A stretch of DNA of 64,000 nucleotides from Candidatus Altimarinota bacterium (GTDB lineage Bacteria; Patescibacteriota; Gracilibacteria; Peribacterales; Peribacteraceae): the NCBI GenBank assembly GCA_963694385.1, contig CAVOCY010000001.1:2186-66185 (forward strand), given 5' to 3'. The position numbers and the translations under genes were made by a program. Shown here one piece after another: positions 2,907 through 59,796 of the stretch. Numbering within the stretch: the first letter of the stretch is position 1; every line of letters starts with the position of its first letter. Below the pieces are notes generated by a model that had not been told where the DNA came from, did no database searches, and saw only the letters and a program-made list of their open reading frames with translations.

Positions 2907-4612
2907 AGCTCAATCGTAAACACCTTCCCTATCTCGGATTCCTAGCTGCCTTCCTTGGCATCTTCTTTTGGGGACTGAATGTAGGCGACGCTATCGGGCA
3001 CGACTACAACTACTTCTTCCCTAAGCTTCTCGATGGCAACTGGCACTTTATGCGTCAGGGCCTAGCGCCATTTCTGTATACCCCTCACTACTGTGGAGGG
3101 TTCCCAGAGTTTGGCAACCCGCAATCAATGTACTATAGCCTCCTTCAGATTCTTTCTCTGAAGCTTGATCTATGGATTGCGATGCAACTGGTGATGGCAG
3201 TGGCGATGATGATTGGGTACTGGGGTTGGTATTTATTTGGAAGAGATGTCATCAAACTGCGATGGAACTGGGCGCACGTGTTTGCCTTAATTATTATCGC
3301 ACACGGTTTTTATCTGATGCACATGATGGCAGGACACGCTATTTATTATACGATGCCACTGATAGGACTGCTACTGTGGTTACTGCTTGAACGCACCCGT
3401 GATACTTGGAAATCGTTGATAGCAAAGTCTGCAGCATTTGGATTTATCACTGCGAATATTATTCATAGTGGTGGATTTATGGTCGGTGTTTTTGGTGCCG
3501 CTGCATTTGCAATCTTCTTGGCGCTAGAGTTGATCCTGAATCGAAAAACAATTCGTGATCGATCTCGAGTACTGGGATTACGTATCATTGGATGCACACT
3601 AGCAGCGCTACTGATGAATGGTGGAAAGCTGTATGCCATCTTTAGTTTGATGCGATTTTTCCCGCGTAACTTACCATTTGATCGTCTCGCAGAAGGGTCG
3701 AATACTTTCGGGTATATTTTAAATGCACTCTGGTCTTTTCCGCAGAACGAAGGGCTGTTTGTGCAGTATGGAATCCCTGATTGGGGTGCCATTCATGAGT
3801 ACAGTATGTACCTATCGCCGGTGGTTCTCATCGGGCTGCTCTGTGGAATGTGGTTGATGTGGAAACATCGGAAATTGAACATTCCACTGTTGGTAATCTC
3901 GATCGTGATCGGACTATTCTTTTTCCAATTGATCCAAGGTCATGGTGTATTCGTTACACCACTCGAAGGTCTGCCTATCTTTAAATCCCTCCGGATGAAT
4001 ACGCGATTTGTGTATCCATTTTCGTTTGCTTTGACTGCAGCAGGTGTGTGGAGTTTGAATCGCCTTTCGTCTCACGCCTCACGCCTCACGTACTACGCAT
4101 CACTTCTCACACTCCTCGCCTTTCTGTCCGCGTACGTACCAATGCTGATCGACATAGCACCACCACGGTCTTTGGATTACAGCGAAGTACAATATCACCT
4201 AAAACAAAATGAAGGATTTCTAGACCTTGATGTCAACAGTGTCATTGATATGCGCGGCGAAGGCCAAGCAGAGTTTGTTCCCCTCTTTGCCGGCGCCAAT
4301 CATGTGTACTGCGAAGAGCCTCTACTCTGGGGAGACAAGCCAGAAATGGAACCACTAGAAGCAGGAGATGTGTATTTAGGTTGGGATGATCGGCTGAACC
4401 TCTATAACCCTGCATGTTTTATCTATCCAGAGGTAAATAACTGCAAACCAGGAGATCGTATAGAAGTAGCAGATATGGATAACTTTACACAATTTGTATC
4501 CGGAGAAAAGACGCACTGGAAGGTTCCTATCGTACAAAGAATCCTCAACTGGATAAGTGTGCTGACGCTTATCTCTGCAGCTATCATTGCTGTACTATGG
4601 CGTAGACGATGA
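2903..4612 (+). CDS. Polytopic membrane protein, paralog 2 of 3
   Basis: 569-aa ORF whose GTG start overlaps the upstream stop (GTGA). It carries the same conserved blocks as paralogs 1 and 3. Confidence 0.75.
   Translation: MKLNRKHLPYLGFLAAFLGIFFWGLNVGDAIGHDYNYFFPKLLDGNWHFMRQGLAPFLYTPHYCGGFPEFGNPQSMYYSLLQILSLKLDLWIAMQLVMAVAMMIGYWGWYLFGRDVIKLRWNWAHVFALIIIAHGFYLMHMMAGHAIYYTMPLIGLLLWLLLERTRDTWKSLIAKSAAFGFITANIIHSGGFMVGVFGAAAFAIFLALELILNRKTIRDRSRVLGLRIIGCTLAALLMNGGKLYAIFSLMRFFPRNLPFDRLAEGSNTFGYILNALWSFPQNEGLFVQYGIPDWGAIHEYSMYLSPVVLIGLLCGMWLMWKHRKLNIPLLVISIVIGLFFFQLIQGHGVFVTPLEGLPIFKSLRMNTRFVYPFSFALTAAGVWSLNRLSSHASRLTYYASLLTLLAFLSAYVPMLIDIAPPRSLDYSEVQYHLKQNEGFLDLDVNSVIDMRGEGQAEFVPLFAGANHVYCEEPLLWGDKPEMEPLEAGDVYLGWDDRLNLYNPACFIYPEVNNCKPGDRIEVADMDNFTQFVSGEKTHWKVPIVQRILNWISVLTLISAAIIAVLWRRR
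4071..4090. repeat. (CTCACGC) x2.9 tandem heptamer array inside paralog 2
   Basis: Read directly: ctcacgc ctcacgc ctcacg. It encodes SHASRL in a segment that differs among the three paralogs. Confidence 0.8.
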
Positions 4613-9341: not shown

Positions 9342-10427
9342 ATGAAACTTGCTATCGTCGCCGACTGGCTCCCTGTCTACGCAGGGGCAGAACATGTCAT
9401 CGCTCAGATGCATCATCTATGGCCAAATGCGCCGATTTTTACGACCGTAGTACATCGATCAAATATTGGCCCACTAGCTACTGCAGATATTCGAACAACC
9501 AGCCTACAAAAATGGTACAAGCTCACAGGAAATCATCAGTGGCTACTCCCATGGATGCCACGTGCAATAGAAACGATTGATCTTCGCGGCTTTGATGTGA
9601 TCTTAAGTTCCTCTCATGCTATTGGTAAGGGAATCATTCCTCCCAGTACTGCACGCCACATTTGTTACTGCCATACACCTATGCGCTACGCATGGGAGAT
9701 GGAAGATGAGTATCTTGATGACTTTAAGATACCGCAGTTTCTTCGTAGAACGATTAAGCAGAAGTTGAAACAGATTCGTAAGTGGGATCTTACTTCTGCA
9801 CAACGTGTCGATCAATTTATCGCAAACTCCACAACAGTGCAGGAACGCATCAAACGGATTTATAATCGTGACTCTGTCGTTATTCACCCCCCAGTTTCTG
9901 AGCGCTTCTTCGAAACCGACAACCGACAACCGACAACCGATTCCTACTATCTTACCGTCGGCCGCCACGTTCCGTACAAGCGAACAGATCTTCTGATAGA
10001 AGCAGCAAACAAGATGAAGATCCCTCTTAAGGTTGGAGGATCAGGAAAAGATTTTGATCGTCTTAAAGCAATGGCAGGACCTACTGTAGAAATGCTTGGC
10101 TTTGTCCCTGATGAGAAACTTCCTGAACTCTACAGCAATGCAAAAGCATTCCTCTTTGCACCGTTCGAAGATGCAGGAGTTGTACCACTAGAGGCGCAAG
10201 CCTGCGGCACTCCCGTCGTTGCATTTGGAAAAGGAGGTGTGCTGGATACCGTAATTGACGGGGAGACAGGGGTCTACTTTGGAGAGCAGACTGTTGATTC
10301 TGTAGTAGATGCTATACAGAAATTTGAGGGGATGCATTTTGATGAGTGTTTGATCCGTAAACATGCCGCTCAGTTCTCTGCAGAGCGGTTTAGAGAGAAG
10401 ATGCTTGAAGTATTTGACAACTTATAA
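9342..10427 (+). CDS. GT4-family glycosyltransferase
   Basis: The N-terminus MKLAIVADWL... is typical, so the internal ATG at 9342 is preferred over the ORF-track start at 9303. The C-terminal E-x7-E region is present (FEDAGVVPLEAQACGTPVVAFGKGG). It contains the heptamer array at 9914-9940. Confidence 0.85.
   Translation: MKLAIVADWLPVYAGAEHVIAQMHHLWPNAPIFTTVVHRSNIGPLATADIRTTSLQKWYKLTGNHQWLLPWMPRAIETIDLRGFDVILSSSHAIGKGIIPPSTARHICYCHTPMRYAWEMEDEYLDDFKIPQFLRRTIKQKLKQIRKWDLTSAQRVDQFIANSTTVQERIKRIYNRDSVVIHPPVSERFFETDNRQPTTDSYYLTVGRHVPYKRTDLLIEAANKMKIPLKVGGSGKDFDRLKAMAGPTVEMLGFVPDEKLPELYSNAKAFLFAPFEDAGVVPLEAQACGTPVVAFGKGGVLDTVIDGETGVYFGEQTVDSVVDAIQKFEGMHFDECLIRKHAAQFSAERFREKMLEVFDNL
9914..9940. 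repeat. (AACCGAC) x3.9 tandem heptamer array inside GT4 gene 1
   Basis: Read directly: aaccgac aaccgac aaccgac aaccga, encoding TDNRQPTTD. It is the reverse complement of the GGTTGTC/CGGTTGT family seen at 12106, 37270 and 45714. Confidence 0.9.
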
Positions 10428-12105: not shown

Positions 12106-12133
12106 AGTTGTCAGTTCTCGGTTGTCACTTCTC
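12106..12133. repeat. Degenerate heptamer array AGTTGTC AGTTCTC GGTTGTC ACTTCTC
   Basis: Read directly in the divergent spacer between the CNNM gene and nnrD. It belongs to the GGTTGTC family. Confidence 0.7.
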
Positions 12134-12165: not shown

Positions 12166-12942
12166 ATGCAAAGAGATCCTTCCTCCCACAAAGGCGATAA
12201 TGGAAAAGTAGCAGTTGTTGGTGGTAGTACGTACATACACGGTGCACCTATCCTCAATGCGCTAGCTGCTGAGGCGAGCGGGATCGATACACTGAGTATT
12301 TGTTTACCACAGTGCCATAGCGAAGCGGCAAAGAGTTGGACACTGAATGCATTTGTGCATCCGTTTGATGGAGATGATATTGCAGACAGTGATATCGAAT
12401 CTATTTTGGAACTGATCGCCCCACTCGACTGTGTAGTTCTTGGTTCGGGTATCGCCAAAACTGGAGAGCGCGTTCACGCACTCGAAGAAATTATCGCATC
12501 GTGCACAACGCCGATGGTACTCGATGCAACGGCACTCCAAGAAAATACATTAGATCTTGTCCGCGGTAAGCAGGCAATCCTCACTCCCCACCTCGGAGAG
12601 CTCGAACGTATGGGAGTCGAAGAGAATGATTTACAGGACATTGCAAACGAGTATCAGGCGATCATTGTCCTAAAGGGGCAGACAGACAAAGTCTTTAGCG
12701 CACATGCAACGGATGAAATAGCTGGAGGAAACGCAGGGCTTACTACTGGCGGAACAGGTGATGTACTAGCAGGTCTCATCGCTGGACTGATCGCCCAACG
12801 CATGGCATCCGTAGATGCTGCAAAAGATGCGTGTGCCATTCTAAAAAAGGCAGCCGAGAAACTCGAGAAAGAAAAAGGGTACAGCTTCACCGCTACAGAT
12901 GTTGTGGGAGAAATTCCTGCACTGTTAAAGAATCAAAAATGA
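12166..12942 (+). CDS. nnrD: ADP-dependent NAD(P)H-hydrate dehydratase (YjeF C-terminal type)
   Basis: 258 aa with HKGDNGKVAVVGGS..Y.GAP and GGTGDVLAGLIAGL motifs. Confidence 0.85.
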   Translation: MQRDPSSHKGDNGKVAVVGGSTYIHGAPILNALAAEASGIDTLSICLPQCHSEAAKSWTLNAFVHPFDGDDIADSDIESILELIAPLDCVVLGSGIAKTGERVHALEEIIASCTTPMVLDATALQENTLDLVRGKQAILTPHLGELERMGVEENDLQDIANEYQAIIVLKGQTDKVFSAHATDEIAGGNAGLTTGGTGDVLAGLIAGLIAQRMASVDAAKDACAILKKAAEKLEKEKGYSFTATDVVGEIPALLKNQK

Positions 12943-34731: not shown

Positions 34732-34816
34732 GGAAAGTGGAAAGTGGAAAGTGGAAAGTGGAAAAAGCTACAGTATATTAACTTGATTGTTTTCCGTTTT
34801 CCGTTTTCCACTTCTA
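34732..34816. repeat. (GGAAAGT)x4+1 / 22-nt loop / (GTTTTCC)x3+1 inverted heptamer arrays
   Basis: Read directly. Array B overlaps the stop of the TPM gene. Plus-strand RNA would pair fully using G.U wobbles, whereas minus-strand RNA would have A.C mismatches. Confidence 0.9.
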
Positions 34817-35722
34817 CCAACTACCACCTGCACCCCCACCACCAAAACCACCTCCACCAAAACCACCTCCTCCTCCAGAAGATCCTCCTCTGCCTCCTCC
34901 ACCTATCACCCATATACCTTCTCCACTTTTTTTCTTCTTCTTTTGCTTCTTTAAGAATTCGCGAAATGGCTTATGTTTAAGATAGAGCATAGAAGCGAGA
35001 AAATCTGTAAGTGCCCCGGCGGCTCCAAGAACAATCAGCCCTGTTATTCCTCCAAAGAAGAACCCAAACATCCCCCCAAGAAACCCTCCCTCCCACCATG
35101 ATCTACTTGGTGAAATTGTCAGAAGAACTCCGATAAAGAATTGGTAGAACATAAAGAAGAAGAACAATCCAAACACAGAAAGAATCATCCATAATGGAGT
35201 AGGCACTCCGTCAAGATTCTCTGATATTGATGTACTTGATACCTCGTACTCTCCTCCTATCTGACTTTTGAGTGCGGCCACTCCCGCAGTGATACCTCCA
35301 CTGTAATTCCCACTCTTAAACTCCGGAGTAATTTCTCTGTCGATGATCTGCTTTGCTGCAAGATCGGGTACTGCACCCTCGAGGCCGTATCCCACAGCAA
35401 TAAAAATCTTACGGTCTTCTATGGCGATCAGTAGAAGCAAGCCGTTATCGTTCTCCGCAGAACCGACGCCCCATTCTCGCCCTACTTCTACTGCAGTGTC
35501 TGCTATTACCTCACCATCAAGTGTATTGATGATGAGTATGGCGATCTCGTTACTGGTTTCACCTTTGTAATTTTGCAGATCGATCTCGAGGCTTCGTTCT
35601 TCGTTCGCAGAAAGAACACCTGCGATGTCTGTAACAAACCCGTCAGCTTCTGGCACATCAAACGCATAAGCGTTTGGGGTTAGGGTTAGGGTTAGGGTTA
35701 GGGCAAGGAAAAGAGTTCTCAT
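34814..35722 (-). CDS. TPM-domain (YgcG-like) membrane protein with a Gly-rich tail
   Basis: Signal peptide, then the TPM pattern (V.D.AGVLS..E...L...L....ET.NEIAI..INTLDG...WGVG...DNGLLLLIA...RK..I.VGYGLEG), TM helices and a GGGG-rich C-terminus. Confidence 0.85.
   Translation of the reverse strand: MRTLFLALTLTLTLTPNAYAFDVPEADGFVTDIAGVLSANEERSLEIDLQNYKGETSNEIAILIINTLDGEVIADTAVEVGREWGVGSAENDNGLLLLIAIEDRKIFIAVGYGLEGAVPDLAAKQIIDREITPEFKSGNYSGGITAGVAALKSQIGGEYEVSSTSISENLDGVPTPLWMILSVFGLFFFFMFYQFFIGVLLTISPSRSWWEGGFLGGMFGFFFGGITGLIVLGAAGALTDFLASMLYLKHKPFREFLKKQKKKKKSGEGIWVIGGGGRGGSSGGGGGFGGGGFGGGGAGGSW
35677..35703 (+). repeat. GGG(TTAGGG)x4 hexamer array (five G3 runs) on the template strand of the TPM gene
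   Basis: Read directly. It encodes LTLTLTLT in the signal-peptide region on the minus strand. Confidence 0.9.
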
Positions 35723-36287: not shown

Positions 36288-36367
36288 GAATTATGAATGA
36301 AGTATTATGAATTATGAAAAGAAATGCACGCAAATCCTCGTAATTCTTAATTCTTAATTCTTAATTC
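36288..36367. repeat. (GAATTAT-like)x5 / loop / (TTAATTC)x4 inverted heptamer arrays
   Basis: GAATTAT GAATGAA GTATTAT GAATTAT GAAAAGA ... GTAATTC TTAATTC TTAATTC TTAATTC. Array B encodes the last codons of the DUF368 gene. Confidence 0.85.
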
Positions 36368-37228
36368 TCTTGCTGCGACAACTTCTATAACAATTACTAG
36401 CACTGCTCCTAGCGCCATAAATCCAACGACTTGTGCAGTGTCTCCATTCCAATCTGGAATCATGTTTTCTGTTCCTACTTTCCATGGCCAGATTTTTCTG
36501 AGGCTTCCAATCATCAGCCCTGTTAGAAGTGCGACAGTTAAATCGTGATACTTTGCAAAGAGCCATCCAAGTACCTGAGAGAAGAGGACCAAACCTACAA
36601 CAGCACCTATACCGATATATGCGATAGGGCCAACGTCACGATTGTTTACGGCAGAGAGTACAAACTCATACTTACCAAGAAGCACGAGAAGAAATGCACC
36701 AGATACTCCTGGGAGAATCATTGCGCAGATAGTAATAGCTCCACAGAGCACAAGGAACCATGCAGCATCTGGAGTCTGTACAGGCACTAGCCCAACGAGA
36801 ACATACGCAACGGCACATCCAAAGAGTAATGCGATGACGCGACGTGGAATCCATTTCTTTACACGTACGCCTACAACAAAGATTGAAGCAAATACTAATC
36901 CAAAGAAGAAACTCCATACGCGCGTTGGCTCTGTCTCGAGCAAATGCTCTAATGGAGAAGCAAGTAAAGCAGCAGCAAACAGAATTCCTGAGCCAACAGA
37001 AATAAGGAATCCCCATTTTGGGAGTGTAAATGCGTGATGAATTTTGCCGTGGACTATGTCTCGCCAAAATGCTTTCTTTCCGAAGAGGGCAATTGCATCA
37101 ATCAGCTCTTCGTATATTCCTAAAATAAACGCCATTGTTCCTCCGGAAACACCGGGGACAATGTCTGCAGCCCCCATACAGAAGCCACGAAGGAAGAGTC
37201 CGATCTGTCGACGTGCAATATGAATCAT
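36347..37228 (-). CDS. DUF368 family membrane protein (family recently implicated in undecaprenyl-phosphate translocation)
   Basis: GAADIVPGVSGGTMAFILGIYEELI near the N-terminus and a second PGVSGAF motif. It is polytopic. Confidence 0.8.
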   Translation of the reverse strand: MIHIARRQIGLFLRGFCMGAADIVPGVSGGTMAFILGIYEELIDAIALFGKKAFWRDIVHGKIHHAFTLPKWGFLISVGSGILFAAALLASPLEHLLETEPTRVWSFFFGLVFASIFVVGVRVKKWIPRRVIALLFGCAVAYVLVGLVPVQTPDAAWFLVLCGAITICAMILPGVSGAFLLVLLGKYEFVLSAVNNRDVGPIAYIGIGAVVGLVLFSQVLGWLFAKYHDLTVALLTGLMIGSLRKIWPWKVGTENMIPDWNGDTAQVVGFMALGAVLVIVIEVVAARELRIKN

Positions 37229-37269
37229 TGGAGGGATAGTACTAGAGTTTTTACTGTGTTTCTAGTGAT

Positions 37270-37347
37270 CGGTTGTCGGTTGTCGGTTGTCAGAATTCAG
37301 TAAAGATCAAATGTTACTGGCAACAAAGAACTGAAAACTGACAACTC
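37270..37347. repeat. (CGGTTGT)x3 / loop / (GCAACAA AGAACTG AAAACTG ACAACTC) inverted heptamer arrays
   Basis: Read directly. The 24-mer cggttgtcggttgtcggttgtcag is identical to 45721-45744. It lies in the divergent spacer upstream of the hsp20 gene. Confidence 0.85.
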
Positions 37348-37393
37348 GCATTGCCAGGAGGAATTTGCAGAAAAGCATGATTGTTCTGTACCA

Positions 37394-45565: not shown

Positions 45566-46624
45566 GTGAAAATTTTATTTACTCGTTTTCCATTTGAGTC
45601 TGCTAACGGTGGTGCAGAAAATCAGACGACCGTTCTGATGAAAGGATTGATAGATCGTGGACATGAGGTAAGTTTTTTGGGGAGTTGTCCGGTGCTACTT
45701 GATCGGTGTGAGAAGTTGTCGGTTGTCGGTTGTCGGTTGTCAGTAGGAAAACCACCTGTTACAAAGTGGGATGCTATTAGTTTTCTATGGCGTAAATGGA
45801 ATATACGAAAAAAACTGATCGCTACACTGAGAACTGAGAACCTAGAACCGACAACTATTGTCATGCTCAGTCTTACTGAAAAAATTCTTCTTACACCCTA
45901 TGCAGTATCGAAGGGTATAAAAGTGTGTTGGATAGAACATGACACTGTTGGTGATTGGCTTGCGAAAAATCCATCACTCTCGCAACTGCAACACATGAGT
46001 GAGAATGTAACGACTATCTGTGTTTCTGATTTGAGTGCTGATATTTTTAGAAGTCTCGAATATAAAAATGTCATCGGTATTCCTAATGGTGTTGATCTTC
46101 CGCCAGACAATTTTACCAAACATGATTTTGATGAAACATTGCGCGTCGGATGTATAGCGAGACTCAGTAAAGAGAAGGGGGTTGATGTTTTGGTGGAGGC
46201 AATGCGCATGGTCGATAATGCAACACTGCTGATTAATGGAAAAGGTGATGAGTACATCCAAAGCTCTGCAACAGTTTCTGTAAAAGCAGAAGTGCCTGAT
46301 GTAAACGATGTGTACAAAGAGATCGATGTGCTTGTTTTGCCGTCACGAAAAGAAGATCCATTCGGTCTGGTTGTTGCCGAAGCAATGCTTCGGGGCATTC
46401 CAACTATTTGCACTGATGCTTGCGGTATTGCACGGTATCTCTCTGATAATTCTGATACGTTAATTGTTCCTGCGGGCAGCAGCCAAGCCCTAGCTGCAGC
46501 CATAAATCAAATGCAAGACACGGCAACAAGGTCCCGCATTGGCAAGACAGGAAAACGAACTGCAGAAGAAAAATTTACTACCGAGAAGATGATTGATAAT
46601 TACGAAAAGGTGTTGAACGTGTAG
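45566..46624 (+). CDS. GT4-family glycosyltransferase
   Basis: GTG start (MKILFTRFPFESANGGAENQ) and a C-terminal EDPFGLVVAEAMLRGIPTI motif. It contains the heptamer array at 45714-45741. Confidence 0.85.
   Translation: MKILFTRFPFESANGGAENQTTVLMKGLIDRGHEVSFLGSCPVLLDRCEKLSVVGCRLSVGKPPVTKWDAISFLWRKWNIRKKLIATLRTENLEPTTIVMLSLTEKILLTPYAVSKGIKVCWIEHDTVGDWLAKNPSLSQLQHMSENVTTICVSDLSADIFRSLEYKNVIGIPNGVDLPPDNFTKHDFDETLRVGCIARLSKEKGVDVLVEAMRMVDNATLLINGKGDEYIQSSATVSVKAEVPDVNDVYKEIDVLVLPSRKEDPFGLVVAEAMLRGIPTICTDACGIARYLSDNSDTLIVPAGSSQALAAAINQMQDTATRSRIGKTGKRTAEEKFTTEKMIDNYEKVLNV
45714..45741. repeat. (GGTTGTC)x4 tandem heptamer array inside GT4 gene 2
   Basis: agttgtc ggttgtc ggttgtc ggttgtc, encoding LSVVGCRLS. 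Degenerate units extend upstream to about 45683. Confidence 0.9.
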
Positions 46625-46633
46625 AATGCCTCC

Positions 46634-48850
46634 GTGCAAAAAACATTCTTAACCTCTCTGGTTCAAATGCGGGCAAGTATGCCCGCTCTGGTTGTGGTAT
46701 GTTTTTTAATTTCAGGATCTGCCCTTACCCAAAAAACCATTACGTTTGATGAGCCTATTGATGCTCTGAGCGTACGTTTGCCACATGACGATACGCAGGT
46801 GATGATCCAAACTACTGATGGATGGCATCAGTTTGCTATCGAAAAAGAATTTGATCCTCTCATGATGGAGAGTGATCTTGTGATATTCCCAGAACCTGTA
46901 AAAAAGATCGTGATGCGTGGGCAGGTACAAAGTGTTGAACTTCACCCGATCGTTGTGAGTAAAGAGCCTGCCAAGTACAGCCTCGCTGCGACGCAGTTTT
47001 ACCGATCACCAAAGATATTAAGTCGTAAAGACTGGGGAGCAAATGATGAATACCTTTTTCGTGGACCACAAATAGCAAAGAGTGATACGGCTGTTGTCCG
47101 TGGAAATGGTACGAGTACGGGAACGAGTAGTAGCACTAGTAGTAAGCGCGTAGATGACTGCGAAATGAAACAGGTAAACTATCCGAATGACTTTAAGGCG
47201 AGTAACACCGAAACGCATGACGTCTCTGGTAACGAATACCGTTGGGCACAACGCTACTCACCAAAGGTAAAACTACTAGTTGTGCATCACACTGCACAAA
47301 AAGTGGCTGGTGATAACCGTCCCACTGTAGAACGGATGCGTGCACTCTATGAATACCATACCAATAGTCGTGGATGGGGAGACATTGGGTATCACTATGT
47401 TGTTGATGAACAAGGTGGTATTTATGAGGGGCGCAGTGGAGGGAAGAATGTTGTTGGTGGCCATGTGTACTGCGGAAATGTGGGCACTGTGGGCGTAGCA
47501 TTGATGGGAAACTTTGAGGAAGAGCAGCCGACGATACAACAAATTCAATCCTTACAGTGGCTGTTAAATCACCTCGGTGAAACGTATGACATCAACCTAA
47601 ATCGCACTGTGACGTTTCATGGAAAAAATGTAAAAACAATCCTGCGTCATAAAGACCTTATCTCTACAGAGTGTCCTGGATTTTTTATGAGCCATACGGT
47701 TTCACAGGTTCGCAGTAATGTTATCGCTGGAGATTTAATGAAAGGAGTGACATTCCCTAAGATGGCATCGAAAGGGTACAAAGATAAATCTCAAACACGC
47801 TTAAGTACGAGGCTACAGGAAGCAGGACAACAACTCTCTCGCAGATTTTATAGAACCAAAAGACAAATACGTACTGCCACAAGACTAGATAATCCTCGGC
47901 TTTCGTATTATCGAGATCAGCTTGCCGTAAGCACCAACATACAACGCAAACGTTCTCCGAGAACGCAAAGGCCTATGCGACCCACTGGCACACTCTATCG
48001 TCCAACAATTAACAAGCAACAATTAACAATTAACAATACTTCTCAGAATGGCCACATTCGCATTCGTCTGAGTTACACGGGAAACACTGCGGAGATTTCT
48101 TCTACAGAAGTTGCAGATGTAAACGGAAACCGTGCAAAGATCGTTCGCTTTGGTAGAGATGGAAATGTGTGCGTCGCTGTGAGTGGATCGCAAACACTTG
48201 CAGAAGGAGTGGTACGCGTGAACCCAGGGGAAGGAGTGATTACGGTGCAAAGCTGGAAGACAAAGTGGAATAGGTTCCGTGGTGTCATAGAATGCCGCAT
48301 TGTTGATGGGCAACTGGTGCTGATAAATGAGCTGTCACTCGAGGACTACCTTGCAGGACTCTCCGAGCAGCCAGATACAGAGCCACGCGAAAAGCAAAAG
48401 GCATTTGCTGTTGCTGCACGCAGTTATGCTGCGCACTACATGAACCTAAGTAACACCAAATTCCCTGGCAAGCCGTACCACGGCAGTGATACGGGGAAAA
48501 GTTTTCAAAGTTACAGTGGCGTTGCATATGAGGAAGATAACGCGAAGTGGGTACAGTCTGTACTGGATACACAGAACAAAGTAATTATGAAGAATGGCGA
48601 GATCGTGAAGGCAGCGTATTTCTCTTCTGATGATGGACGCACAAGAGCACCTGCAGAAAACGGTTGGAAGAACTTTCCGTTTGCAGAAGTGTTTACCTCC
48701 AAGAAAGACCCGTGGTGCGAAGGGATGACCTTACGCGGACATGGTGTAGGAATGTCTGGCTGTGGCGCAGAGGGGCAAGCCAGACAAGGTAAAAAGTACC
48801 TAGAGATTCTGAAGTACTACTATCCGGGGACAAGCGTTGTTCAGAGGTAG
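46634..48850 (+). CDS. Fusion of an N-acetylmuramoyl-L-alanine amidase (Amidase_2/PGRP) domain and a SpoIID/LytB-like domain
   Basis: 738 aa with a GTG start. Amidase_2 pattern: LLVVHHTA ... GWGDIGYHYVVDEQGGIYEGR ... HKDL..TECPG. SpoIID pattern: LEDYLAGLSEQP...KAFAVAARSYA ... SSDDGRT ... GHGVGMSGCGA. A basic linker lies between the two domains. Confidence 0.8.
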   Translation: MQKTFLTSLVQMRASMPALVVVCFLISGSALTQKTITFDEPIDALSVRLPHDDTQVMIQTTDGWHQFAIEKEFDPLMMESDLVIFPEPVKKIVMRGQVQSVELHPIVVSKEPAKYSLAATQFYRSPKILSRKDWGANDEYLFRGPQIAKSDTAVVRGNGTSTGTSSSTSSKRVDDCEMKQVNYPNDFKASNTETHDVSGNEYRWAQRYSPKVKLLVVHHTAQKVAGDNRPTVERMRALYEYHTNSRGWGDIGYHYVVDEQGGIYEGRSGGKNVVGGHVYCGNVGTVGVALMGNFEEEQPTIQQIQSLQWLLNHLGETYDINLNRTVTFHGKNVKTILRHKDLISTECPGFFMSHTVSQVRSNVIAGDLMKGVTFPKMASKGYKDKSQTRLSTRLQEAGQQLSRRFYRTKRQIRTATRLDNPRLSYYRDQLAVSTNIQRKRSPRTQRPMRPTGTLYRPTINKQQLTINNTSQNGHIRIRLSYTGNTAEISSTEVADVNGNRAKIVRFGRDGNVCVAVSGSQTLAEGVVRVNPGEGVITVQSWKTKWNRFRGVIECRIVDGQLVLINELSLEDYLAGLSEQPDTEPREKQKAFAVAARSYAAHYMNLSNTKFPGKPYHGSDTGKSFQSYSGVAYEEDNAKWVQSVLDTQNKVIMKNGEIVKAAYFSSDDGRTRAPAENGWKNFPFAEVFTSKKDPWCEGMTLRGHGVGMSGCGAEGQARQGKKYLEILKYYYPGTSVVQR
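48006..48040. repeat. CAATTAA CAAGCAA CAATTAA CAATTAA CAATACT heptamer array inside the amidase-SpoIID linker
   Basis: Read directly. It encodes INKQQLTINNT. Confidence 0.85.
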
Positions 48851-48998: not shown

Positions 48999-50168
48999 CT
49001 AAGCAACAGCCTTAATGTCTGCAACAGCACTCTGCAAAGCAGAAATTTGATCTGTCTGTTCCCAAGAAAACTCGGACCGACCGAAGTGTCCGTACGCAGC
49101 TGTTGCCCTGTAGATTGGACGACGAAGATCAAGCGTCTTGATTATGCCCGAAGGCGTCATATCAAACACAGACTTTATTGCAGATTCGATAGCCTTGTCT
49201 TCCACAGTTCCTGTGCCAAATGTTGTGACGTGCACAGACACTGGTTCTGGATAACCGATAGCGTACGCAAGTTGTACTTCGCATCGATCTGCCATGCCTG
49301 CAGCAACGATATTTTTTGCAATGTACCGTGCCATGTATGCACCAGAGCGGTCTTGCTTGTTGGGTACTTTTCCACTGAATGCTCCTCCTCCGTGGCGACC
49401 CATACCACCGTATGTGTCTACGATAATCTTGCGACCTGTGAGCCCTGTGTCTCCGTGTGGTCCACCGATAATGAATGTTCCGGTTTCGTTCACGAGAATC
49501 TTTGTTTGCTCATCGAGATATTCTCCACATACAGGTTTGATTACATTCTCTAGAAGTTCTGATTTGATTTGTTCATGGGTGATACCTTCGTCGTGCTGTG
49601 CAGCCAGAACTACCGTGTCGACACGTAGCGGTTTGTCATTTTCATCATACTCAATCGTTACTTGACTCTTTCCGTCTGGGCGAAGGTAACTGAGCGTTCC
49701 ATCTTTACGGACATCTGTAAGACGCTTCGCAAGTTTGTGTGCAAGCATTATTGGAAGTGGCATGAGCTCTTTGGTCTCGTTACATGCGTATCCAAACATC
49801 AGCCCTTGGTCTCCTGCGCCCTGTGCTTTGTGTGCACCATCACTTTCATCTTCACCTTGGGCTATCTGCGCACTCTGTTCATGAATCGCATTAAGGACGC
49901 TGCAACTCTTGTAGTCGATACCGTAGTCTGCATTGTTATATCCAATATCTTTTAGAACATCACGTGCAACTTTTTGCACATCAACATACGTTGTTGTTGT
50001 GATCTCTCCGCCAACAACAATAAGACCTGTTGTGGTGTAGCATTCGCAGCAACATGCTCCTGTGGGGTCATCTTTCAGCACTGCATCGAGCATTGCATCT
50101 GAGATTTGGTCACATATCTTATCTGGGTGACCTTCGGTTACGGATTCTGAAGTGAAGAAGTATGACAT
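48999..50168 (-). CDS. metK: S-adenosylmethionine synthetase
   Basis: [25 protein letters not shown] and GGGAFSGK motifs are present. Confidence 0.95.
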
Positions 50169-50726: not shown

Positions 50727-52154
50727 ATGAGCGAAATCTCAACTTCACATCCATTTACTCTTATCCTCTTTGGAGGATCTGGGCACCTAGCGCAAATCAA
50801 ATTGTATCCAGCGCTCTATGTATTAGCGCTAAAAAAACGCTTACCCAAAGATTACGCCATCGTGGGGTTTGCCCGCAGTGACATGGATGATGCTGCATTT
50901 CGTACACTCGTAGAAAGTGCGATTCGCAAAGAGATGATCGAAGTGACAGAGCCGGCTCTCGAAGAATTTATGTCACACGTGTATTACCAACAGGGTCAGT
51001 ATGATGATGTTGAAGACTATAAGAAGTTATCAGAACGATTAGTGGGTATTGAAAAACAGTGGGCAGTGGGCAGTGGGCAGTGTGTACGCTTGGCATATTA
51101 TTCTGTACCACCAACAGTCTTCGGTGCCATTTCGCATAACTTGTGTGAAGGAAACGTGCATGATGGCAAGATTCCATTTCGTTGTATTGTCGAAAAACCT
51201 GTAGGGCATGACCTTGAAAGTTTTGAAGATATTAAAAAGCAATTGGTTGGATGTTTTGCCGAAGATGAAATCTATTTGCTCGACCACTATCTTGGCAAAG
51301 AAGCGGTGCGTAACATTTACTATTTGCGCCACGCGAATCCTATCTTCGAACGCATTTTAAAAAACACACTGATTGATCACGTAGAAATTACCGCGATGGA
51401 GAACAAGGGGATAGAGGGGAGGGCAGGATACTTCGAAGCTGCAGGAACATTCCGCGATATGTTCCAGTCGCATCTTCTTATGATGGCATCACTGCTAACT
51501 ATGCGCATTCAAAGTGATGAAGACTTGGCTGCAGGACGCGAAGATGCGCTCTCGCAGTTTTATCTCCCTGCTGCAACGGACATGGGGGACATCGCACTCC
51601 AAGCGCAGTACAGCGGGTACCAAGATGAAGACGGTGTAGAAAAAGGATCTCGCACAAATACGTTTGCGTGCCTAAAGCTAATGACACGTATCTCGAAGTG
51701 GGATGGTGTGCCGTTTTATTTGCACAGTGGTAAGAAACTCGAAAAAAAAGAGACGCGTATCAGTATTCAATTCCAAGAGCCTAGACCTGTAGGGGAAGGC
51801 TCTGCTCCAAACCGATTGGATATCATCCTGCAAGGAGAAGCAGGAATGCGTATGCATTTACAGACAAAAATGGGAGGAACGGAGCCTGCATTCCGTCCAC
51901 TCGTTCTCGAAGATCCACTGGTGTGTGTTGGTGACTGTTTGCCAGAACATAGCTTGATGATTTTGGAGGCGATCCATGGAAGGCATCACTGGTTCCTTGA
52001 TTTTGATGAAATTAAAACCTCTTGGAGACTGGTAGATCCTGTACAAAAACATCTTGATGCTTCCGATACTCCTCTACACTCATACAAAGAAGGCAGCAAA
52101 GGCCCAAAGGCTGCAGATCAGTGGATAGAAAAGGATGGAATTGAATGGTTTTAA
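50727..52154 (+). CDS. zwf: Glucose-6-phosphate 1-dehydrogenase
   Basis: Start at MSEISTSHPFTLILFGGSGHLA. EKPVGHD and LDHYLGKE motifs are present. It contains the heptamer array at 51057-51084. Confidence 0.9.
   Translation: MSEISTSHPFTLILFGGSGHLAQIKLYPALYVLALKKRLPKDYAIVGFARSDMDDAAFRTLVESAIRKEMIEVTEPALEEFMSHVYYQQGQYDDVEDYKKLSERLVGIEKQWAVGSGQCVRLAYYSVPPTVFGAISHNLCEGNVHDGKIPFRCIVEKPVGHDLESFEDIKKQLVGCFAEDEIYLLDHYLGKEAVRNIYYLRHANPIFERILKNTLIDHVEITAMENKGIEGRAGYFEAAGTFRDMFQSHLLMMASLLTMRIQSDEDLAAGREDALSQFYLPAATDMGDIALQAQYSGYQDEDGVEKGSRTNTFACLKLMTRISKWDGVPFYLHSGKKLEKKETRISIQFQEPRPVGEGSAPNRLDIILQGEAGMRMHLQTKMGGTEPAFRPLVLEDPLVCVGDCLPEHSLMILEAIHGRHHWFLDFDEIKTSWRLVDPVQKHLDASDTPLHSYKEGSKGPKAADQWIEKDGIEWF
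51057..51084. repeat. (CAGTGGG)x3 + CAGTGTG heptamer array inside zwf
   Basis: Read directly. It encodes QWAVGSGQC just before the conserved R.(F/A)YY(L/S).PP segment. Confidence 0.9.
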
Positions 52155-58284: not shown

Positions 58285-58358
58285 GTAGATTGTGAAGAGA
58301 AATAAGTAATGAGTGAAGAGTAATTATCTATCTTTACTTTTCACTTTTCACTTTTAAC
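58285..58358. repeat. Inverted 7-nt-periodic arrays: GTAG/GTGA/GAAA/GTAA/GTGA/GTAA cores then TTAC/TCAC/TCAC/TAAC cores
   Basis: The cores start at 58285, 58292, 58299, 58306, 58313, 58320 | 58334, 58341, 58348, 58355. Array B encodes the murA C-terminus (KVKSEK). Confidence 0.75.
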
Positions 58359-59686
58359 TCTTGCTTGATGTTTGCTTCTACATGCTCCTGCTTAATAGTT
58401 CTTATAACTTCAGTCGGATCTTCCAGTTCTACCTTCGTAATATTTGCTCCAAGGCTGCGTAACTTATCATCAAGATGATCATATCCACGCTCGATATATC
58501 GTACGTCTGTAATTGTTGTTTCTCCTTCTGCACAGAGTGCAGCAATCACCATAGCAGCACCTGCGCGGATATCATTACTCGCAACTGTGTGACCACGCAA
58601 AGTAGTTGGCCCAATGATCAACGCCTGATGTGAATTGAGAATCTCTATTTGTGCTCCCATTTTTTCCAGCTCGTAGAGATAAGCCATACGACCTTCGAAT
58701 AACCGCTCAAACAAGCGAGATACTCCTGTAGCCTGTGTCATAGCAACACCAAGTGGTGCCTGAAGATCTGTCGGTAATCCTGGGAAGATATTCGTCCGTG
58801 CCTCTATTGCATTGAGTGAGGAGATCTCTCCATCTACAAACAATACTTTTTCTGCTGAGTCGTACTTCCACTCTGCACCCATACGCCTTAGGACATCGAG
58901 AAAGTTTGTAAGATGATCATATTCGGTGTCATGCAAACGCACTTTACCACGTGTAACAAGAGCTGCGATTGCAAGCCCTCCAGCCTCTAGATAATCCGAA
59001 GGAACACGATACTCAGCACACGCAAGTTGCGTGCGACCTCGAACTGTAACGGTGTGCGTTCCGATACCTTCTACTTCTGCACCCATGGCACAGATAAATT
59101 TCTCTACTGCTTGAACGTGTGGTTCTGCAGCTGCCATTTCGATACGTGTTTCCCCTGGTGTCAGTGCCGCTGCAAGAATGGCATTCTCTGTAGCAGTAAC
59201 CGAAAACTCTGGAAGGATAACGTGTCCAGGCTTGAGCGTTCCTTGCAGATGCAACACATCATTACTACTCAAATCTTGCGCTCCGAGTTGTGTCAGTGCA
59301 CGAATGTGCGCTTCTACCGGACGCTTCCCAAGTACACATCCTCCTGGGTAACACATCTCCACTACTCCAAAGCGTGCTAGTAGTGGCCCAAGCAATACGA
59401 TAGAACCACGAAGTTTGGAAACAAGCTCTGCTGGAATTGGTTTGCTTTGTAAATTCTGCGTTTGGATACGTACTGTCCCATCTTCGAAACTTGTCTCGGC
59501 ACCTAGGTAGTTGAGGATCTGTAGCATCACTTTAATGTCCCGCAAAAATGGAACGTTGGTCAGCACTGTCTCTCCTTTACAAAGTACCGACGCAGCAATC
59601 AACGGCAACGCTGCGTTTTTGGATCCACTGATGGTGACGTCTCCTTTGAGGGGCACCCCTCCTTGAATGCGATAACGGATATCCAT
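58334..59686 (-). CDS. murA: UDP-N-acetylglucosamine 1-carboxyvinyltransferase
   Basis: GSKNAALPLIAAS and the active-site Cys context PGGCVLGKRPVEAH. TATAAT lies 8 nt upstream of the ATG. Confidence 0.95.
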   Translation of the reverse strand: MDIRYRIQGGVPLKGDVTISGSKNAALPLIAASVLCKGETVLTNVPFLRDIKVMLQILNYLGAETSFEDGTVRIQTQNLQSKPIPAELVSKLRGSIVLLGPLLARFGVVEMCYPGGCVLGKRPVEAHIRALTQLGAQDLSSNDVLHLQGTLKPGHVILPEFSVTATENAILAAALTPGETRIEMAAAEPHVQAVEKFICAMGAEVEGIGTHTVTVRGRTQLACAEYRVPSDYLEAGGLAIAALVTRGKVRLHDTEYDHLTNFLDVLRRMGAEWKYDSAEKVLFVDGEISSLNAIEARTNIFPGLPTDLQAPLGVAMTQATGVSRLFERLFEGRMAYLYELEKMGAQIEILNSHQALIIGPTTLRGHTVASNDIRAGAAMVIAALCAEGETTITDVRYIERGYDHLDDKLRSLGANITKVELEDPTEVIRTIKQEHVEANIKQELKVKSEK

Positions 59687-59737: not shown

Positions 59738-59796
59738 TTAGTAGCTAGTAGCTAGGAGATAGGGGGCCTAGTCCCAAACTACTAACTACTAGCCCC
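59738..59796. repeat. (TTAGTAG CTAGTAG CTAGGAG ATAGGGG) / loop / (CTACTAA CTACTAG CCCC) inverted heptamer arrays
   Basis: Read directly between the lspA stop and the murA start. AGGGGGC and GCCCCT can also pair. Confidence 0.8.

What the first reader, a model, noticed from the sequence alone, without database searches (positions are those of the whole stretch)
45714..45741. The same GGTTGTC/CGGTTGT heptamer array sits inside both GT4 glycosyltransferase genes and in two intergenic spacers
(GGTTGTC)x4 lies in frame in GT4 gene 2 (45714-45741). Its reverse complement (AACCGAC)x3.9 lies in frame in GT4 gene 1 (9914-9940). (CGGTTGT)x3 lies in the DUF368/hsp20 spacer (37270-37291), where a 24-mer is identical to 45721-45744. 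A degenerate copy lies at 12106-12133. A 7-nt unit is not a multiple of 3, so gain or loss of one or two units by slippage would frameshift the gene, whereas a change of three units keeps the frame. Simple-sequence-repeat switching of glycosyltransferases is an established phase-variation mechanism in pathogens such as Campylobacter, Haemophilus and Neisseria. Finding the same repeat in both surface-glycan enzymes here suggests ON/OFF or length variation of surface glycosylation. It could alternatively reflect insertion of a mobile repeat into permissive loops.
Basis: partly seen in the sequence, partly recalled or inferred. Interest (0 to 1): 0.62.

Follow-up and report, generated by a model that had tools for sequence, protein, structure and literature searches.

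The report
Heptamer repeat hairpins inside glycosyltransferase genes
Short 7-base tandem repeats, common across this marine candidate-phylum (Peribacteria) genome, sit in frame in flexible loops of two sugar-transferase genes, often as hairpin-forming inverted pairs, and show no sign of being the proposed on/off switch.

Summary
Perfect (GGTTGTC)n arrays lie in frame in both GT4 genes and in the DUF368/hsp20 spacer; a 14-mer search gave 9 hits against 0.27 expected.

The unit is one of many. Period-7 arrays dominate the simple repeats of this marine Peribacteria genome and 81 related loci: 77 arrays against 0 in simulated sequence.

The repeat peptide is not an insertion. In orthologs the same loop has the same length but holds different heptamers (TACGAAA, TTGGCAG, TCACAAA and others).

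The GT4-2 gene is a hotspot: 0.38 arrays/kb, against 0.13 intergenic and 0.024 in other coding DNA, at five recurrent loop sites. The GT4-1 interdomain linker is a second hotspot.

The 45714 array pairs with a degenerate inverted array at 45826-45856 (z = -6.5). This pairing covaries across orthologs that use at least five unit families.

Phase variation is not supported. Arrays have only about 4 units. No length variant or frameshifted allele appears in about 30 contigs, 8 runs or 82 orthologs, and arrays also occur in G6PD, MurA and an amidase.

Best reading: replication slippage plus inverted-repeat template switching writes heptamer arrays into loops that tolerate any sequence of fixed length. 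A selected intragenic hairpin remains possible.

The parts
45714..45743 (+). Arm S1 of an intragenic hairpin. It contains (GTTGTCG)x3.9, perfect over 45715-45741, and is translated as K50-V60 of GT4-2.
45826..45856 (+). Arm S2: a degenerate inverted heptamer array (CTGAGAA CTGAGAA CCTAGAA CCGACAA). It is 24/30 complementary to S1 and is translated as T87-T97 of GT4-2.
45566..46624 (+). GT4-2: a GT-B fold, family 4 glycosyltransferase of 352 aa with unknown acceptor. Across Peribacteria it is a heptamer-array hotspot at about 5 loop sites.
9914..9940 (+). (AACCGAC)x3.9 in the interdomain linker of GT4-1, translated as TDNRQPTTD. No inverted partner nearby (fold z = -0.05).
9342..10427 (+). GT4-1: a family 4 glycosyltransferase. 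The called product is 361 aa, and the ORF is open from 9303.
37269..37293 (+). Intergenic (CGGTTGT)x3.3 array, 110 nt upstream of hsp20. It is 25-nt identical to 45719-45743. Position 37292 is A/G polymorphic between samples.
37328..37350 (+). Degenerate inverted partner (AACTGAAAACTGACAACTC) that pairs with the 37269 array. Hairpin z = -3.8.
12107..12133 (+). Degenerate copy of the same unit family (GTTGTCA GTTCTCG GTTGTCA CTTCTCA). It lies between the CNNM/CBS gene (11096-12082, minus strand) and ORF 12166-12942.
34732..34809 (.). Inverted pair (GGAAAGT)x4.7 and (GTTTTCC)x3 between the TPM-domain gene and bacA. Hairpin z = -5.05. The second arm has one unit fewer in run X10.
36288..36368 (.). 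Inverted pair (GAATTAT)x4.4 and (TAATTCT)x4. The second array encodes the last 7 codons and the stop of DUF368. Hairpin z = -5.2.
48004..48037 (+). (AACAATT)x4.9 in the Amidase_2/SpoIID interdomain linker, a second coding hotspot. L018 has (TACGAAA)x4 at the same place.
51057..51082 (+). (CAGTGGG)x3.7 in a G6PD loop. At the same site and in the same register L016 has AAGTGGA units, and L024 carries a (TGGGGGG)x2.7 array encoding GWGVGGG. Array-less orthologs are 4 aa shorter here.
58336..58359 (-). (GAAAAGT)x3.4 encoding the C-terminal tail and stop codon of a MurA-like (EPSP_synthase family) gene.
59739..59791 (.). Short inverted heptamer pair (TAGTAGC)x2.4 and (AACTACT)x2.1 in an intergenic spacer.
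4071..4090 (+). (CTCACGC)x2.9 inside an unannotated 569-aa ORF.

Best explanation
The (GGTTGTC)n arrays belong to a lineage-wide class of short (3-5 unit) heptanucleotide tandem repeats found throughout Peribacteria, a class of the candidate phyla radiation.

They are most likely made and kept uniform by replication misalignment of two kinds:
- Slippage, or transient misalignment by one 7-nt unit, creates and homogenises direct copies.
- Template switching within one strand, between nearby inverted arms, copies an array as its reverse complement onto a partner site.

The second process overwrites sequence without changing its length. That would explain why arrays come as hairpin-forming inverted pairs, and why they can occupy coding loops without shifting the frame.

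Selection then keeps only outcomes that preserve the reading frame and the loop length. Arrays therefore accumulate where sequence is free but length is fixed: surface loops and the interdomain linker of the two GT-B glycosyltransferases, an amidase/SpoIID linker, a G6PD loop, C-terminal tails and spacers. There they are simply translated into arbitrary peptides with a 7-residue period.

The same unit at several sites in this genome most likely reflects copying between arrays. The 25-nt identity between the hsp20 spacer and GT4-2 includes a variant end unit.

They do not operate as a detectable ON/OFF switch.

Shown here: the class, the hotspots, length conservation, unit turnover, inverted pairing with covariation, and the absence of length variants. 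Inferred: the slippage and template-switch mechanism, and the copying between loci.
For: Period 7 dominates.
- The window has 10 perfect arrays against 0 expected, and none at periods 5 or 8-12.
- In 82 loci (1.33 Mb) there are 77 arrays of period 7, against 22, 5 and 4 for periods 6, 8 and 9, and 0 in simulated sequence.

Same site, different units, same length.
- GT4-2 site 1 holds TTGTCGG, TACGAAA, TTGGCAG, TCACAAA, GAATTAC, AGCTTTC, AATTCGG, AAGTTGC and others.
- The GSC..PPVT segment stays 28 residues in all but two orthologs.

Hotspots.
- 32 of 67 arrays fall in 7% of the DNA, p = 1.5e-19.
- Densities are 0.376/kb in GT4-2, 0.13/kb intergenic and 0.024/kb in other coding DNA.
- Five recurrent loop sites map to helix ends, loops and the interdomain linker of a model with pLDDT 90.5.
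- In GT4-1, 18 of 120 orthologs carry a heptamer-encodable peptide. 18 of 19 hits lie in the same linker, against 0.39 expected anywhere.

Not specific to glycosyltransferases.
- Arrays occur in G6PD (units changing in concert, in register), the amidase linker (11 arrays), and the MurA-like and DUF368 tails.

Inverted partners.
- 17 of 77 arrays have one, against 2 of 154 controls.
- In unrelated metagenome contigs, 19 of 83 have one, against 0 of 166.

S1/S2 hairpin.
- Fold energy is -53.8 against -30.4 +/- 3.6 kcal/mol, z = -6.5.
- S2 is the reverse complement of S1 in 8 orthologs that use at least 5 unit families, including unit-by-unit mirroring in L077.
- RNAalifold finds compensatory changes in 11 of 33 pairs.
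- G-U pairs are few, so the complementarity is at DNA level.

Literature.
- Template switching creates and maintains hairpins and homogenises inverted-repeat arms in coding DNA (PMC8794818, PMC8604942, PMC7202029).
- Heptanucleotide repeats are over-represented in prokaryotes (cited in PMC4679880 and PMC4692102).

Mutability is low to moderate.
- One 7-nt deletion was seen in an intergenic arm, in 1 of the 8 runs laid on that region, and none in coding arrays.
Against: - Array density in GT4-2 is about 3 times that of intergenic DNA. Mere tolerance does not predict this.
- The counts are inflated by shared ancestry, and the arrays were not reduced to independent events.
- The GT4-1 array is 29/29 nt identical between the window and L222, although third codon positions differ at 47%. 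The chance of all 7 unit positions being unchanged is roughly 0.01. This suggests selection on the nucleotide sequence or recent copying.
- The same unit also occupies this site, in another reading frame, in L223 (66% aa identity).
- Covariation of S1 and S2 is equally what a selected RNA or DNA hairpin would show.
- The repair-gene content of the genome (mismatch repair, 3' exonucleases) is unknown.
- Why the period is 7 remains unexplained.
Confidence: 0.55

Rival explanations
1. Selected intragenic hairpin. The inverted heptamer arrays S1 (45714-45743) and S2 (45826-45856) form a 25-35 bp stem in the GT4-2 mRNA or in single-stranded DNA. The stem is kept by selection, for example as an RNase III or decay site, a translation pause between folding units, or a structure affecting replication or transcription. 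The heptamer arrays would then be only the way long stems are built quickly.
For: - The stem is strong: z = -6.5 in the window and -3.3 to -5 in L077, L035, L037 and L026.
- It covaries across at least 5 unit families.
- GT4-2 has more arrays per kb than intergenic DNA.
- The GT4-1 array is conserved at nucleotide level across saturated synonymous divergence.
- Similar hairpins lie between co-directional genes, where REP-like elements act.
Against: - Most orthologs have no arrays (51 of 82).
- L018, L027 and L033 have arrays at both sites that do not pair, so the stem is dispensable.
- In the window the arms have decayed to 24/30.
- The GT4-1 array has no partner.
- G-U pairs are rare, so nothing points to RNA rather than DNA.
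- No expression data could be found.
Confidence: 0.2
2. Phase-variable contingency locus. Slippage by one or two heptamer units switches the two GT4 genes OFF and ON, varying a surface glycan.
For: - The unit is not a multiple of 3, and the arrays lie inside ORFs. The two commonest GT4-2 sites are in the 5' third of the gene.
- Arrays are strongly enriched in this glycosyltransferase across the class.
- Arrays stay perfect while their units change, which needs recurrent turnover within the array.
- One intergenic array differs by exactly one unit between populations.
- Heptanucleotide repeats do mediate phase variation in H. influenzae (PMC2651432).
Against: - The arrays have only about 4 units, whereas the phase-variable H. 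influenzae heptanucleotide tracts vary from 1 to 38 units between strains (PMC2651432).
- The species has one GT4-2 sequence in about 30 contigs, and GT4-1 alleles of equal length.
- No truncated product close to 100% identity appears in the protein searches.
- No indel is seen at either GT4 array in the runs laid on it (8 runs for GT4-2; 4 for GT4-1).
- 0 of 31 array-bearing orthologs is frameshifted. If a fifth were OFF, the chance of seeing none would be about 0.001.
- The same arrays occur in SerRS, G6PD and a MurA-like gene.
- Only assembler contigs, not raw reads, could be inspected, so rare variants cannot be excluded.
Confidence: 0.08
3. Mobile palindromic micro-element (like RPE, REPIN or MITE elements). 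A transposase-driven hairpin repeat inserts, sometimes in frame, into tolerant loops and spacers.
For: - The same unit occurs at 3 perfect and 3 degenerate places in 64 kb.
- A 25-nt identity between two loci includes a variant end unit.
- The architecture is a hairpin of inverted pairs.
- The same unit at the GT4-1 site has a patchy distribution across relatives.
Against: - There is no length gain at GT4-2 site 1.
- The 'loop' between the arms is the most conserved coding segment of the gene.
- At least 8 different units occur among 10 arrays in one window, so there is no family consensus.
- No target-site duplication was looked for or noticed.
- None of the ten window ORFs scanned against Pfam matched a transposase. 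Most window ORFs were not scanned.
- The unit is not unusually common: 21 hits in viral contigs, against 103, 25 and 4 for shuffles of the same composition.
Confidence: 0.06

Closest known systems
Over-represented heptanucleotide simple repeats of prokaryotes. Examples: the long SSRs of Mrazek et al. 2007 as cited in PMC4679880 and PMC4692102; the tandem heptanucleotides of the cyanobacterium Calothrix (mentioned in PMC4692102; called STRR from memory); TAACTGA repeats of Beggiatoaceae, Cyanobacteria and Bacteroidetes (PMC4679880); GGGNATC repeats of Xanthomonas and Nostoc (PMC4692102).
   Same: The unit is 7 nt and the arrays are short (2-6 units, often about 4). They are dispersed, mostly in spacers or overlapping ORF ends, and slippage is the proposed origin.
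   Different: Here there are many units per genome rather than one favoured unit. Arrays sit internally and in frame at orthologous loops, with unit turnover at constant length. A glycosyltransferase gene is a hotspot. Arrays come as inverted pairs that covary. The host is a candidate phyla radiation lineage, for which no such report was found.
Phase-variable SSR contingency loci, such as the H. influenzae tetranucleotide repeats in LPS glycosyltransferase genes and heptanucleotide repeats at hmw and a TonB-receptor gene (PMC2651432).
   Same: The repeat unit is not a multiple of 3 and lies inside or next to a gene, including glycosyltransferases. A one-unit change would shift the frame.
   Different: The H. 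influenzae tracts are much longer (up to 38 units, varying from 1 to 38 between strains) and show ON and OFF alleles. None of this is seen here.
Template-switch (quasi-palindrome) mutations that create and maintain hairpins and homogenise inverted-repeat arms (PMC8794818, PMC8604942, PMC7202029).
   Same: Length-preserving, multi-nucleotide, apparently compensatory changes keep two arms complementary, including inside coding DNA.
   Different: The arms here are heptamer arrays 80 nt apart, with conserved coding sequence between them.
Palindromic repeats tolerated inside genes or operons: Rickettsia palindromic elements inserted in frame, and REP/REPIN elements (both from memory, not checked here).
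   Same: Hairpin-forming repeats that end up translated in surface-exposed, tolerant parts of proteins, or that sit between co-directional genes.
   Different: Those are insertions of one consensus element, with added length and, for REPINs, a dedicated transposase. Here there is no added length at GT4-2 site 1, many unrelated units, and no transposase seen.
Tandem repeats in Borg elements that create disordered regions in proteins (PMC9879509).
   Same: Fast-evolving, independently arising tandem repeats in ORFs that recode flexible protein regions.
   Different: Borg repeats within ORFs have units divisible by 3 (from memory). Here the unit is 7 nt, so the peptide period arises from reading all three frames.

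Membership tests
SSR-mediated phase-variable (contingency) locus | Repeat unit not divisible by 3, inside an ORF or promoter | tested here: met
   7-nt units lie in frame in ORFs 45566-46624 and 9342-10427.
SSR-mediated phase-variable (contingency) locus | Tract long enough to be hypermutable | tested here: not met
   3.9 units (27 nt) here. The H. influenzae phase-variable heptamer tracts vary from 1 to 38 units between strains and reach 6 or more (PMC2651432).
SSR-mediated phase-variable (contingency) locus | Repeat number varies between strains or within populations | tested here: not met
   No length variant in about 30 contigs or in the protein clusters. No indel at the GT4-2 array in 8 runs or at the GT4-1 array in 4 runs of Logan contigs. 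Raw reads were not available, so rare variants remain untested.
SSR-mediated phase-variable (contingency) locus | Both ON and frameshifted OFF alleles among genomes | tested here: not met
   0 of 82 orthologs is frameshifted, 31 of which carry arrays. No truncated product close to 100% identity.
Prokaryotic heptanucleotide SSR class (long SSRs, STRR-like) | Period-7 tandem arrays strongly over-represented relative to other periods and to chance | tested here: met
   10 against 0 in the window. 77 against 0 in 82 loci, with periods 5, 8 and 9 rare.
Prokaryotic heptanucleotide SSR class (long SSRs, STRR-like) | Dispersed, short arrays, mainly in non-coding DNA or at ORF ends | tested here: inconclusive
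   The arrays are dispersed and short (3-5 units). However, 61 of 77 are coding and most of those are internal to ORFs, concentrated in a few loops.
Template-switch (quasi-palindrome) generated inverted repeat | Two nearby arms in inverted orientation whose differences between relatives are multi-nucleotide and mirrored | tested here: met
   S1 and S2 are complementary in 8 orthologs using at least 5 unit families. L077 mirrors three different units.
Template-switch (quasi-palindrome) generated inverted repeat | Individual events reconstructed on a phylogeny as single templated patches | not tested
   This needs denser sampling and a dedicated four-point template-switch model.
In-frame mobile palindromic element (RPE, REPIN or MITE-like) | An insertion that adds length relative to empty sites | tested here: not met
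   GT4-2 site 1 has the same length with and without arrays. The G6PD site gains only 4 aa.
In-frame mobile palindromic element (RPE, REPIN or MITE-like) | One consensus sequence per family, with a cognate transposase | tested here: not met
   At least 8 units among 10 arrays in the window, and 53 units among 77 arrays. None of the ten window ORFs scanned matched a transposase, but most window ORFs and the rest of the genome were not scanned.
GT4 family (GT-B fold) glycosyltransferase | N-terminal Glyco_transf_4 and C-terminal Glycos_transf_1 domains, with two Rossmann-like halves | tested here: met
   Precomputed Pfam hits. AF2 model with pLDDT 90.5 and alternating strand/helix halves. Relatives in the PDB include BshA, PimA and GlgA.
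GT4 family (GT-B fold) glycosyltransferase | A defined substrate, or a role in a surface glycan | tested here: inconclusive
   No NCBIfam equivalog reaches its cut-off. The gene neighbours are cell-wall enzymes (Amidase_2/SpoIID, peptidase S11 and M23), which is only suggestive.

The most novel reading that the evidence does not exclude
The inverted heptamer arrays are not passive debris but a conserved device. A covarying hairpin is embedded in the coding sequence of a Peribacteria glycosyltransferase, with counterparts in other linkers and spacers. It would act in one of two ways. Either it regulates the gene at the RNA or DNA level, or it serves as a self-templating cassette that repeatedly rewrites two protein loops at fixed length. 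The second would be a hairpin-guided loop-recoding mechanism distinct from slippage switches and from diversity-generating retroelements.
Probability: 0.2. Interest if true: 0.8.

Novelty: new variant of a known kind. Interest (0 to 1): 0.6.

Why it matters
This finding shows that a repeat in a glycosyltransferase gene whose unit is not a multiple of three is not, on its own, evidence of phase variation. That reading is easy to reach when annotating uncultured lineages.

It also documents a repeat class that, as far as my literature searches reached, has not been described for candidate phyla radiation bacteria. Its properties are unusual:
- The same protein loop is overwritten in different lineages by different 7-nt arrays at constant length.
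- One enzyme gene carries more arrays per kb than spacers do.
- Arrays come as inverted pairs that covary across species.

If the arrays are only mutational, they give a clean natural system for studying how slippage and template switching generate new peptide sequence and long hairpins in small genomes. If the hairpin is selected, it is a new kind of regulatory or recoding element inside a coding sequence.

Tried and rejected
- The exact-protein look-up of hsp20 from the TTG start found nothing. The ATG start at 37403 worked.
None came from this organism. It therefore could not give the genome-wide count of this unit. It did show that the unit and its inverted pairing are widespread.
- I tested whether GGTTGTC is a globally favoured heptamer. 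In viral contigs it gives 21 hits, against 103, 25 and 4 for three shuffles of the same composition. Rejected.
- I considered an intragenic invertible switch between S1 and S2. Inversion would introduce stop codons, the arms are only 24/30 identical, and no strand-changing joints appear in contigs. Rejected as unlikely.
- The 'joints' 37293->45713 and 34760->45715 in read laying are short contigs that bridge similar arrays, not rearrangements.
- No RNA run holds the region, and no raw-read DNA run is available. Minority alleles and transcript structure could therefore not be examined.
- A bAvd-like gene in L016 hinted at a diversity-generating retroelement. I did not pursue it: heptamer arrays are not adenine-directed mutagenesis, and the gene is absent from the window.
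- The Peribacteria genome paper mentions no such repeats.
Full report
**1. The observation**

- 45715-45741 is a perfect (GTTGTCG)x3.9. The unit that starts at 45714 is AGTTGTC.
- 9914-9940 is (AACCGAC)x3.9, the reverse complement.
- 37269-37291 is (TCGGTTG)x3.3.
- 12107-12133 is a degenerate copy.
- The shared stretch is 25 nt, 37269-37293 = 45719-45743, and includes the non-repeat end GTCAG.

A 14-mer of two units with up to 2 mismatches occurs 9 times, against 0.27 expected.

Both genic arrays are in frame.
- ORF 45566-46624 (352 aa) reads ..CEKLSVVGCRLSVGKPP...
- The ORF ending at 10427 (called product 361 aa, starting at 9342) reads ..FFETDNRQPTTDSYYL...

The DNA is identical in independent assemblies from ENA, JGI, NCBI and Logan.

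**2. Organism and genes**

Close homologs are labelled Candidatus Peribacter, Peribacteraceae or Peregrinibacteria. The population occurs in many marine and seawater metagenomes.

Both proteins have Glyco_transf_4 and Glycos_transf_1 domains. Their relatives in the PDB are distant: BshA, PimA and GlgA for one, WbaZ and a tetrahydrobiopterin glucosyltransferase for the other. No NCBIfam equivalog reaches its cut-off. 'Surface glycan' is therefore an assumption.

**3. One unit among many**

The window holds 10 perfect period-7 arrays of at least 2.8 units, against 0 in simulated sequence. It holds none of period 5 or 8-12. Their units differ: CTCACGC, GGAAAGT, GTTTTCC, TAATTCT, AACAATT, CAGTGGG, ACTTTTC.

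In 82 non-redundant Peribacteria loci (1.33 Mb) there are 77 period-7 arrays. Periods 6, 8 and 9 give 22, 5 and 4, and simulated sequence gives 0. There are 53 canonical units, and the same unit often recurs within one genome.

Over-representation of heptanucleotide repeats in prokaryotes is already known (cited in PMC4679880 and PMC4692102).

**4. Orthologs: same site, same length, other units**

In an alignment of 26 GT4-2 orthologs the repeat peptide is not an insertion. It fills a hypervariable stretch between the conserved GSCPVLL..C and IGxPPVTKW.

The DNA of relatives shows other heptamer arrays at exactly this place:
- (TACGAAA)x4.9 in L014
- (TTGGCAG)x5 in L016
- (TCACAAA)x4.4 in L018
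- (GAATTAC)x4.7 in L027
- (AGCTTTC), (AATTCGG), (AAATTGA), (GCTCAAA), (AAGTTGC), (CCGCGGA) and others further away

The GSC..PPVT segment stays 28 residues in all but two orthologs. Array-free orthologs share a fairly conserved ..CRKRNIPxxELxIG... The arrays therefore overwrite sequence rather than add to it.

**5. Hotspots**

Across 81 loci of about 20 kb each, 32 of 67 perfect arrays lie inside the GT4-2 ortholog, which is 7% of the DNA (binomial p = 1.5e-19). With rough gene calls the densities are 0.376/kb in GT4-2, 0.13/kb intergenic and 0.024/kb in other coding DNA.

The arrays cluster at codons about 47-54, 83-89, 177-191, 232-250 and 315-333. An AlphaFold model (pLDDT 90.5) places these sites as follows:
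- the end of helix 42-50, strand 54-57 and loop 58-66
- the end of helix 67-89 and loop 90-96
- the interdomain linker
- a loop before strand 237-240
- a helix-helix junction

In the GT4-1 family, 18 of 120 orthologs contain a peptide of at least 7 residues that is exactly encodable by a heptamer repeated three times. 18 of the 19 hits fall in the same interdomain linker, against 0.39 expected anywhere, and they use at least 12 units.

Other coding hotspots are the Amidase_2/SpoIID linker (11 arrays) and a G6PD loop. In G6PD the window has CAGTGGG, L016 has AAGTGGA in the same register, and L024 carries a (TGGGGGG)x2.7 array at the same site. This is concerted change of all units. Arrays also encode the C-terminal tails of a MurA-like protein and of DUF368.

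The association with GT4 genes is therefore real but not exclusive. These counts are not corrected for shared ancestry.

**6. Inverted partners and a covarying hairpin**

Of the 77 arrays, 17 have at least 9 nt of the reverse-complement array within 200 nt, against 2 of 154 controls. In 83 unrelated metagenome contigs that carry (GGTTGTC)x3, 19 have such a partner, against 0 of 166 controls.

In the window:
- The 45714 array pairs along its whole length with the degenerate array at 45826-45856. Fold energy is -53.8 against -30.4 +/- 3.6 kcal/mol, z = -6.5.
- The spacer arrays at 37269, 34732/34789 and 36288/36341 are likewise halves of hairpins (z = -3.8, -5.05 and -5.2).
- The GT4-1 array has no partner (z = -0.05).

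Across orthologs, site 2 is the reverse complement of site 1 in the window, L026, L035, L050, L037, L042, L077 and L064. These use at least five unit families. In L077 three different units are mirrored one by one. RNAalifold on six orthologs gives a 20-bp long-range stem, with compensatory changes in 11 of 33 predicted pairs.

G-U pairs are rare (0-4 of about 30), so the complementarity is at DNA level.

L018, L027 and L033 have arrays at both sites that do not pair, and 51 of 82 orthologs have no arrays. The stem is therefore dispensable.

**7. Population data**

The species-level protein clusters contain one GT4-2 sequence, in about 30 contigs. They contain two GT4-1 alleles that differ by N139K, both 361 aa. 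No truncated product close to 100% identity appears.

Logan contigs of 8 runs were laid on the region holding the GT4-2 array and contigs of 4 runs on the GT4-1 array. Neither shows an indel at any coding array, although single-base differences are present nearby.

One intergenic arm (34789, GTTTTCC) lacks exactly one unit in run X10. Position 37292, at the edge of the spacer array, is A or G depending on the sample. Arrays therefore do slip, but slowly.

None of the 31 array-bearing orthologs is frameshifted.

Raw reads were not available, so rare variants remain untested.

**8. A point that the neutral view does not explain**

The GT4-1 array is identical over 29 nt between the window and L222. 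These share 84% aa identity and differ at 47% of third codon positions. The same unit, in another reading frame, occupies the site in L223 (66% aa identity). The closer L224 has (TCACAGA) instead, and two closer orthologs have no array. This points either to selection on the nucleotide sequence or to repeated re-copying of a unit the genome prefers.

**9. Most likely mechanism**

Shown here: a lineage-wide heptamer class; recurrent occupation of loops that tolerate any sequence but have fixed length; unit turnover; inverted pairing with covariation; and no switching.

Inferred: slippage or transient misalignment by one unit creates and homogenises direct copies. Template switching between inverted arms copies an array onto the partner site without changing length. 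This process is documented to create and maintain hairpins and to homogenise inverted-repeat arms in coding DNA (PMC8794818, PMC8604942, PMC7202029).

Because arrays are periodic, a switch can land in any 7-nt register. An array can therefore grow over neighbouring unique sequence at constant length. Selection keeps outcomes that preserve frame and loop length.

The 25-nt identity between the hsp20 spacer and GT4-2 includes a variant end unit, which suggests copying between loci. Why the period is 7 remains open.

**10. Rivals**

- A selected intragenic hairpin fits the covariation and the excess over spacers, but not the stem's absence in most orthologs.
- Phase variation fails on tract length, polymorphism and OFF alleles.
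- A mobile palindromic element fails on length gain, family consensus and transposase.
- An invertible switch is unlikely, because inversion gives stop codons and the arms are only 24/30 identical.

**11. Known relatives and novelty**

The closest known things are the heptanucleotide repeats of cyanobacteria, Beggiatoaceae and Xanthomonas (PMC4679880, PMC4692102), and template-switch hairpins.

MacGregor reports TAACTGA repeats in ORFs mostly at protein ends.

I found no report of heptamer arrays that replace one another at orthologous internal loops, of a glycosyltransferase hotspot, of covarying inverted arrays inside a coding sequence, or of any such repeats in Peribacteria. I rate it a new variant of a known kind.

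Noticed in passing
window 35677-35703: A perfect (GGGTTA)x4.5 array, the vertebrate-type telomere hexamer, lies at the TPM-domain gene / LemA junction. In metagenome contig data its depth jumps to about 10,000, because unrelated telomere-like contigs pile up there.
   Followed up: no
window 37262-37352: The heptamer hairpin lies about 55 nt upstream of the hsp20 start (37403), between divergent genes. That position would suit a 5'-UTR structure such as an RNA thermometer.
   Followed up: no
window 34789-34809: In run X10 the dominant contig lacks exactly one GTTTTCC unit (a 7-nt deletion). This is the only copy-number difference seen at any array in the 8 runs laid on this region.
   Followed up: partly
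window 14872-14992 and 15697-15785: A 33-nt tandem repeat x3.7 and a 42-nt repeat x2.1 lie inside a 1203-aa ORF (13652-17263). Both are in-frame protein repeats of a different kind from the heptamers.
   Followed up: no
window 1167-6351: Three adjacent ORFs of 569-580 aa (1167-2906, 2903-4612, 4609-6351) have no Pfam match. The middle one carries a (CTCACGC)x2.9 array, and the last ends in a (GTTAACT) array.
   Followed up: no
L016 15076-15465: A gene with 23S_rRNA_IVP / bAvd-like hits lies next to the syntenic block of a related marine Peribacter. The bAvd hit hints at a diversity-generating retroelement accessory protein. The gene is not present in the window.
   Followed up: no
L137 10512-10700: A 167-kb metagenome contig (locus GC 42%) carries (AACCGAC) arrays of 10.3 and 16.6 units side by side. 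This tract is far longer than any in Peribacteria.
   Followed up: no
GT4-1 orthologs P0211 and P0237, linker region: The enlarged linker of P0211 encodes two heptamer peptides whose units (CGGAATC and TCCGGAT) are reverse complements, which would be an inverted array pair entirely inside a coding linker. This was inferred from the peptides only. P0237 also has an enlarged linker with one heptamer-encodable peptide (SGIRNQE).
   Followed up: partly
L018 5211-5238 and L014 568-601: The unit TACGAAA appears in the amidase linker of one marine relative and at GT4-2 site 1 of another. A GT4-1 ortholog labelled Kiritimatiellales (P0202) has a peptide encodable by the same unit (EIRNTKY). Units therefore recur across genomes at different sites.
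   Followed up: partly
window 49718-49803: A cluster of linked single-base variants appears in runs X3 and X4, at about 20-55% of depth depending on the position. It marks co-existing strains of this population.
   Followed up: no
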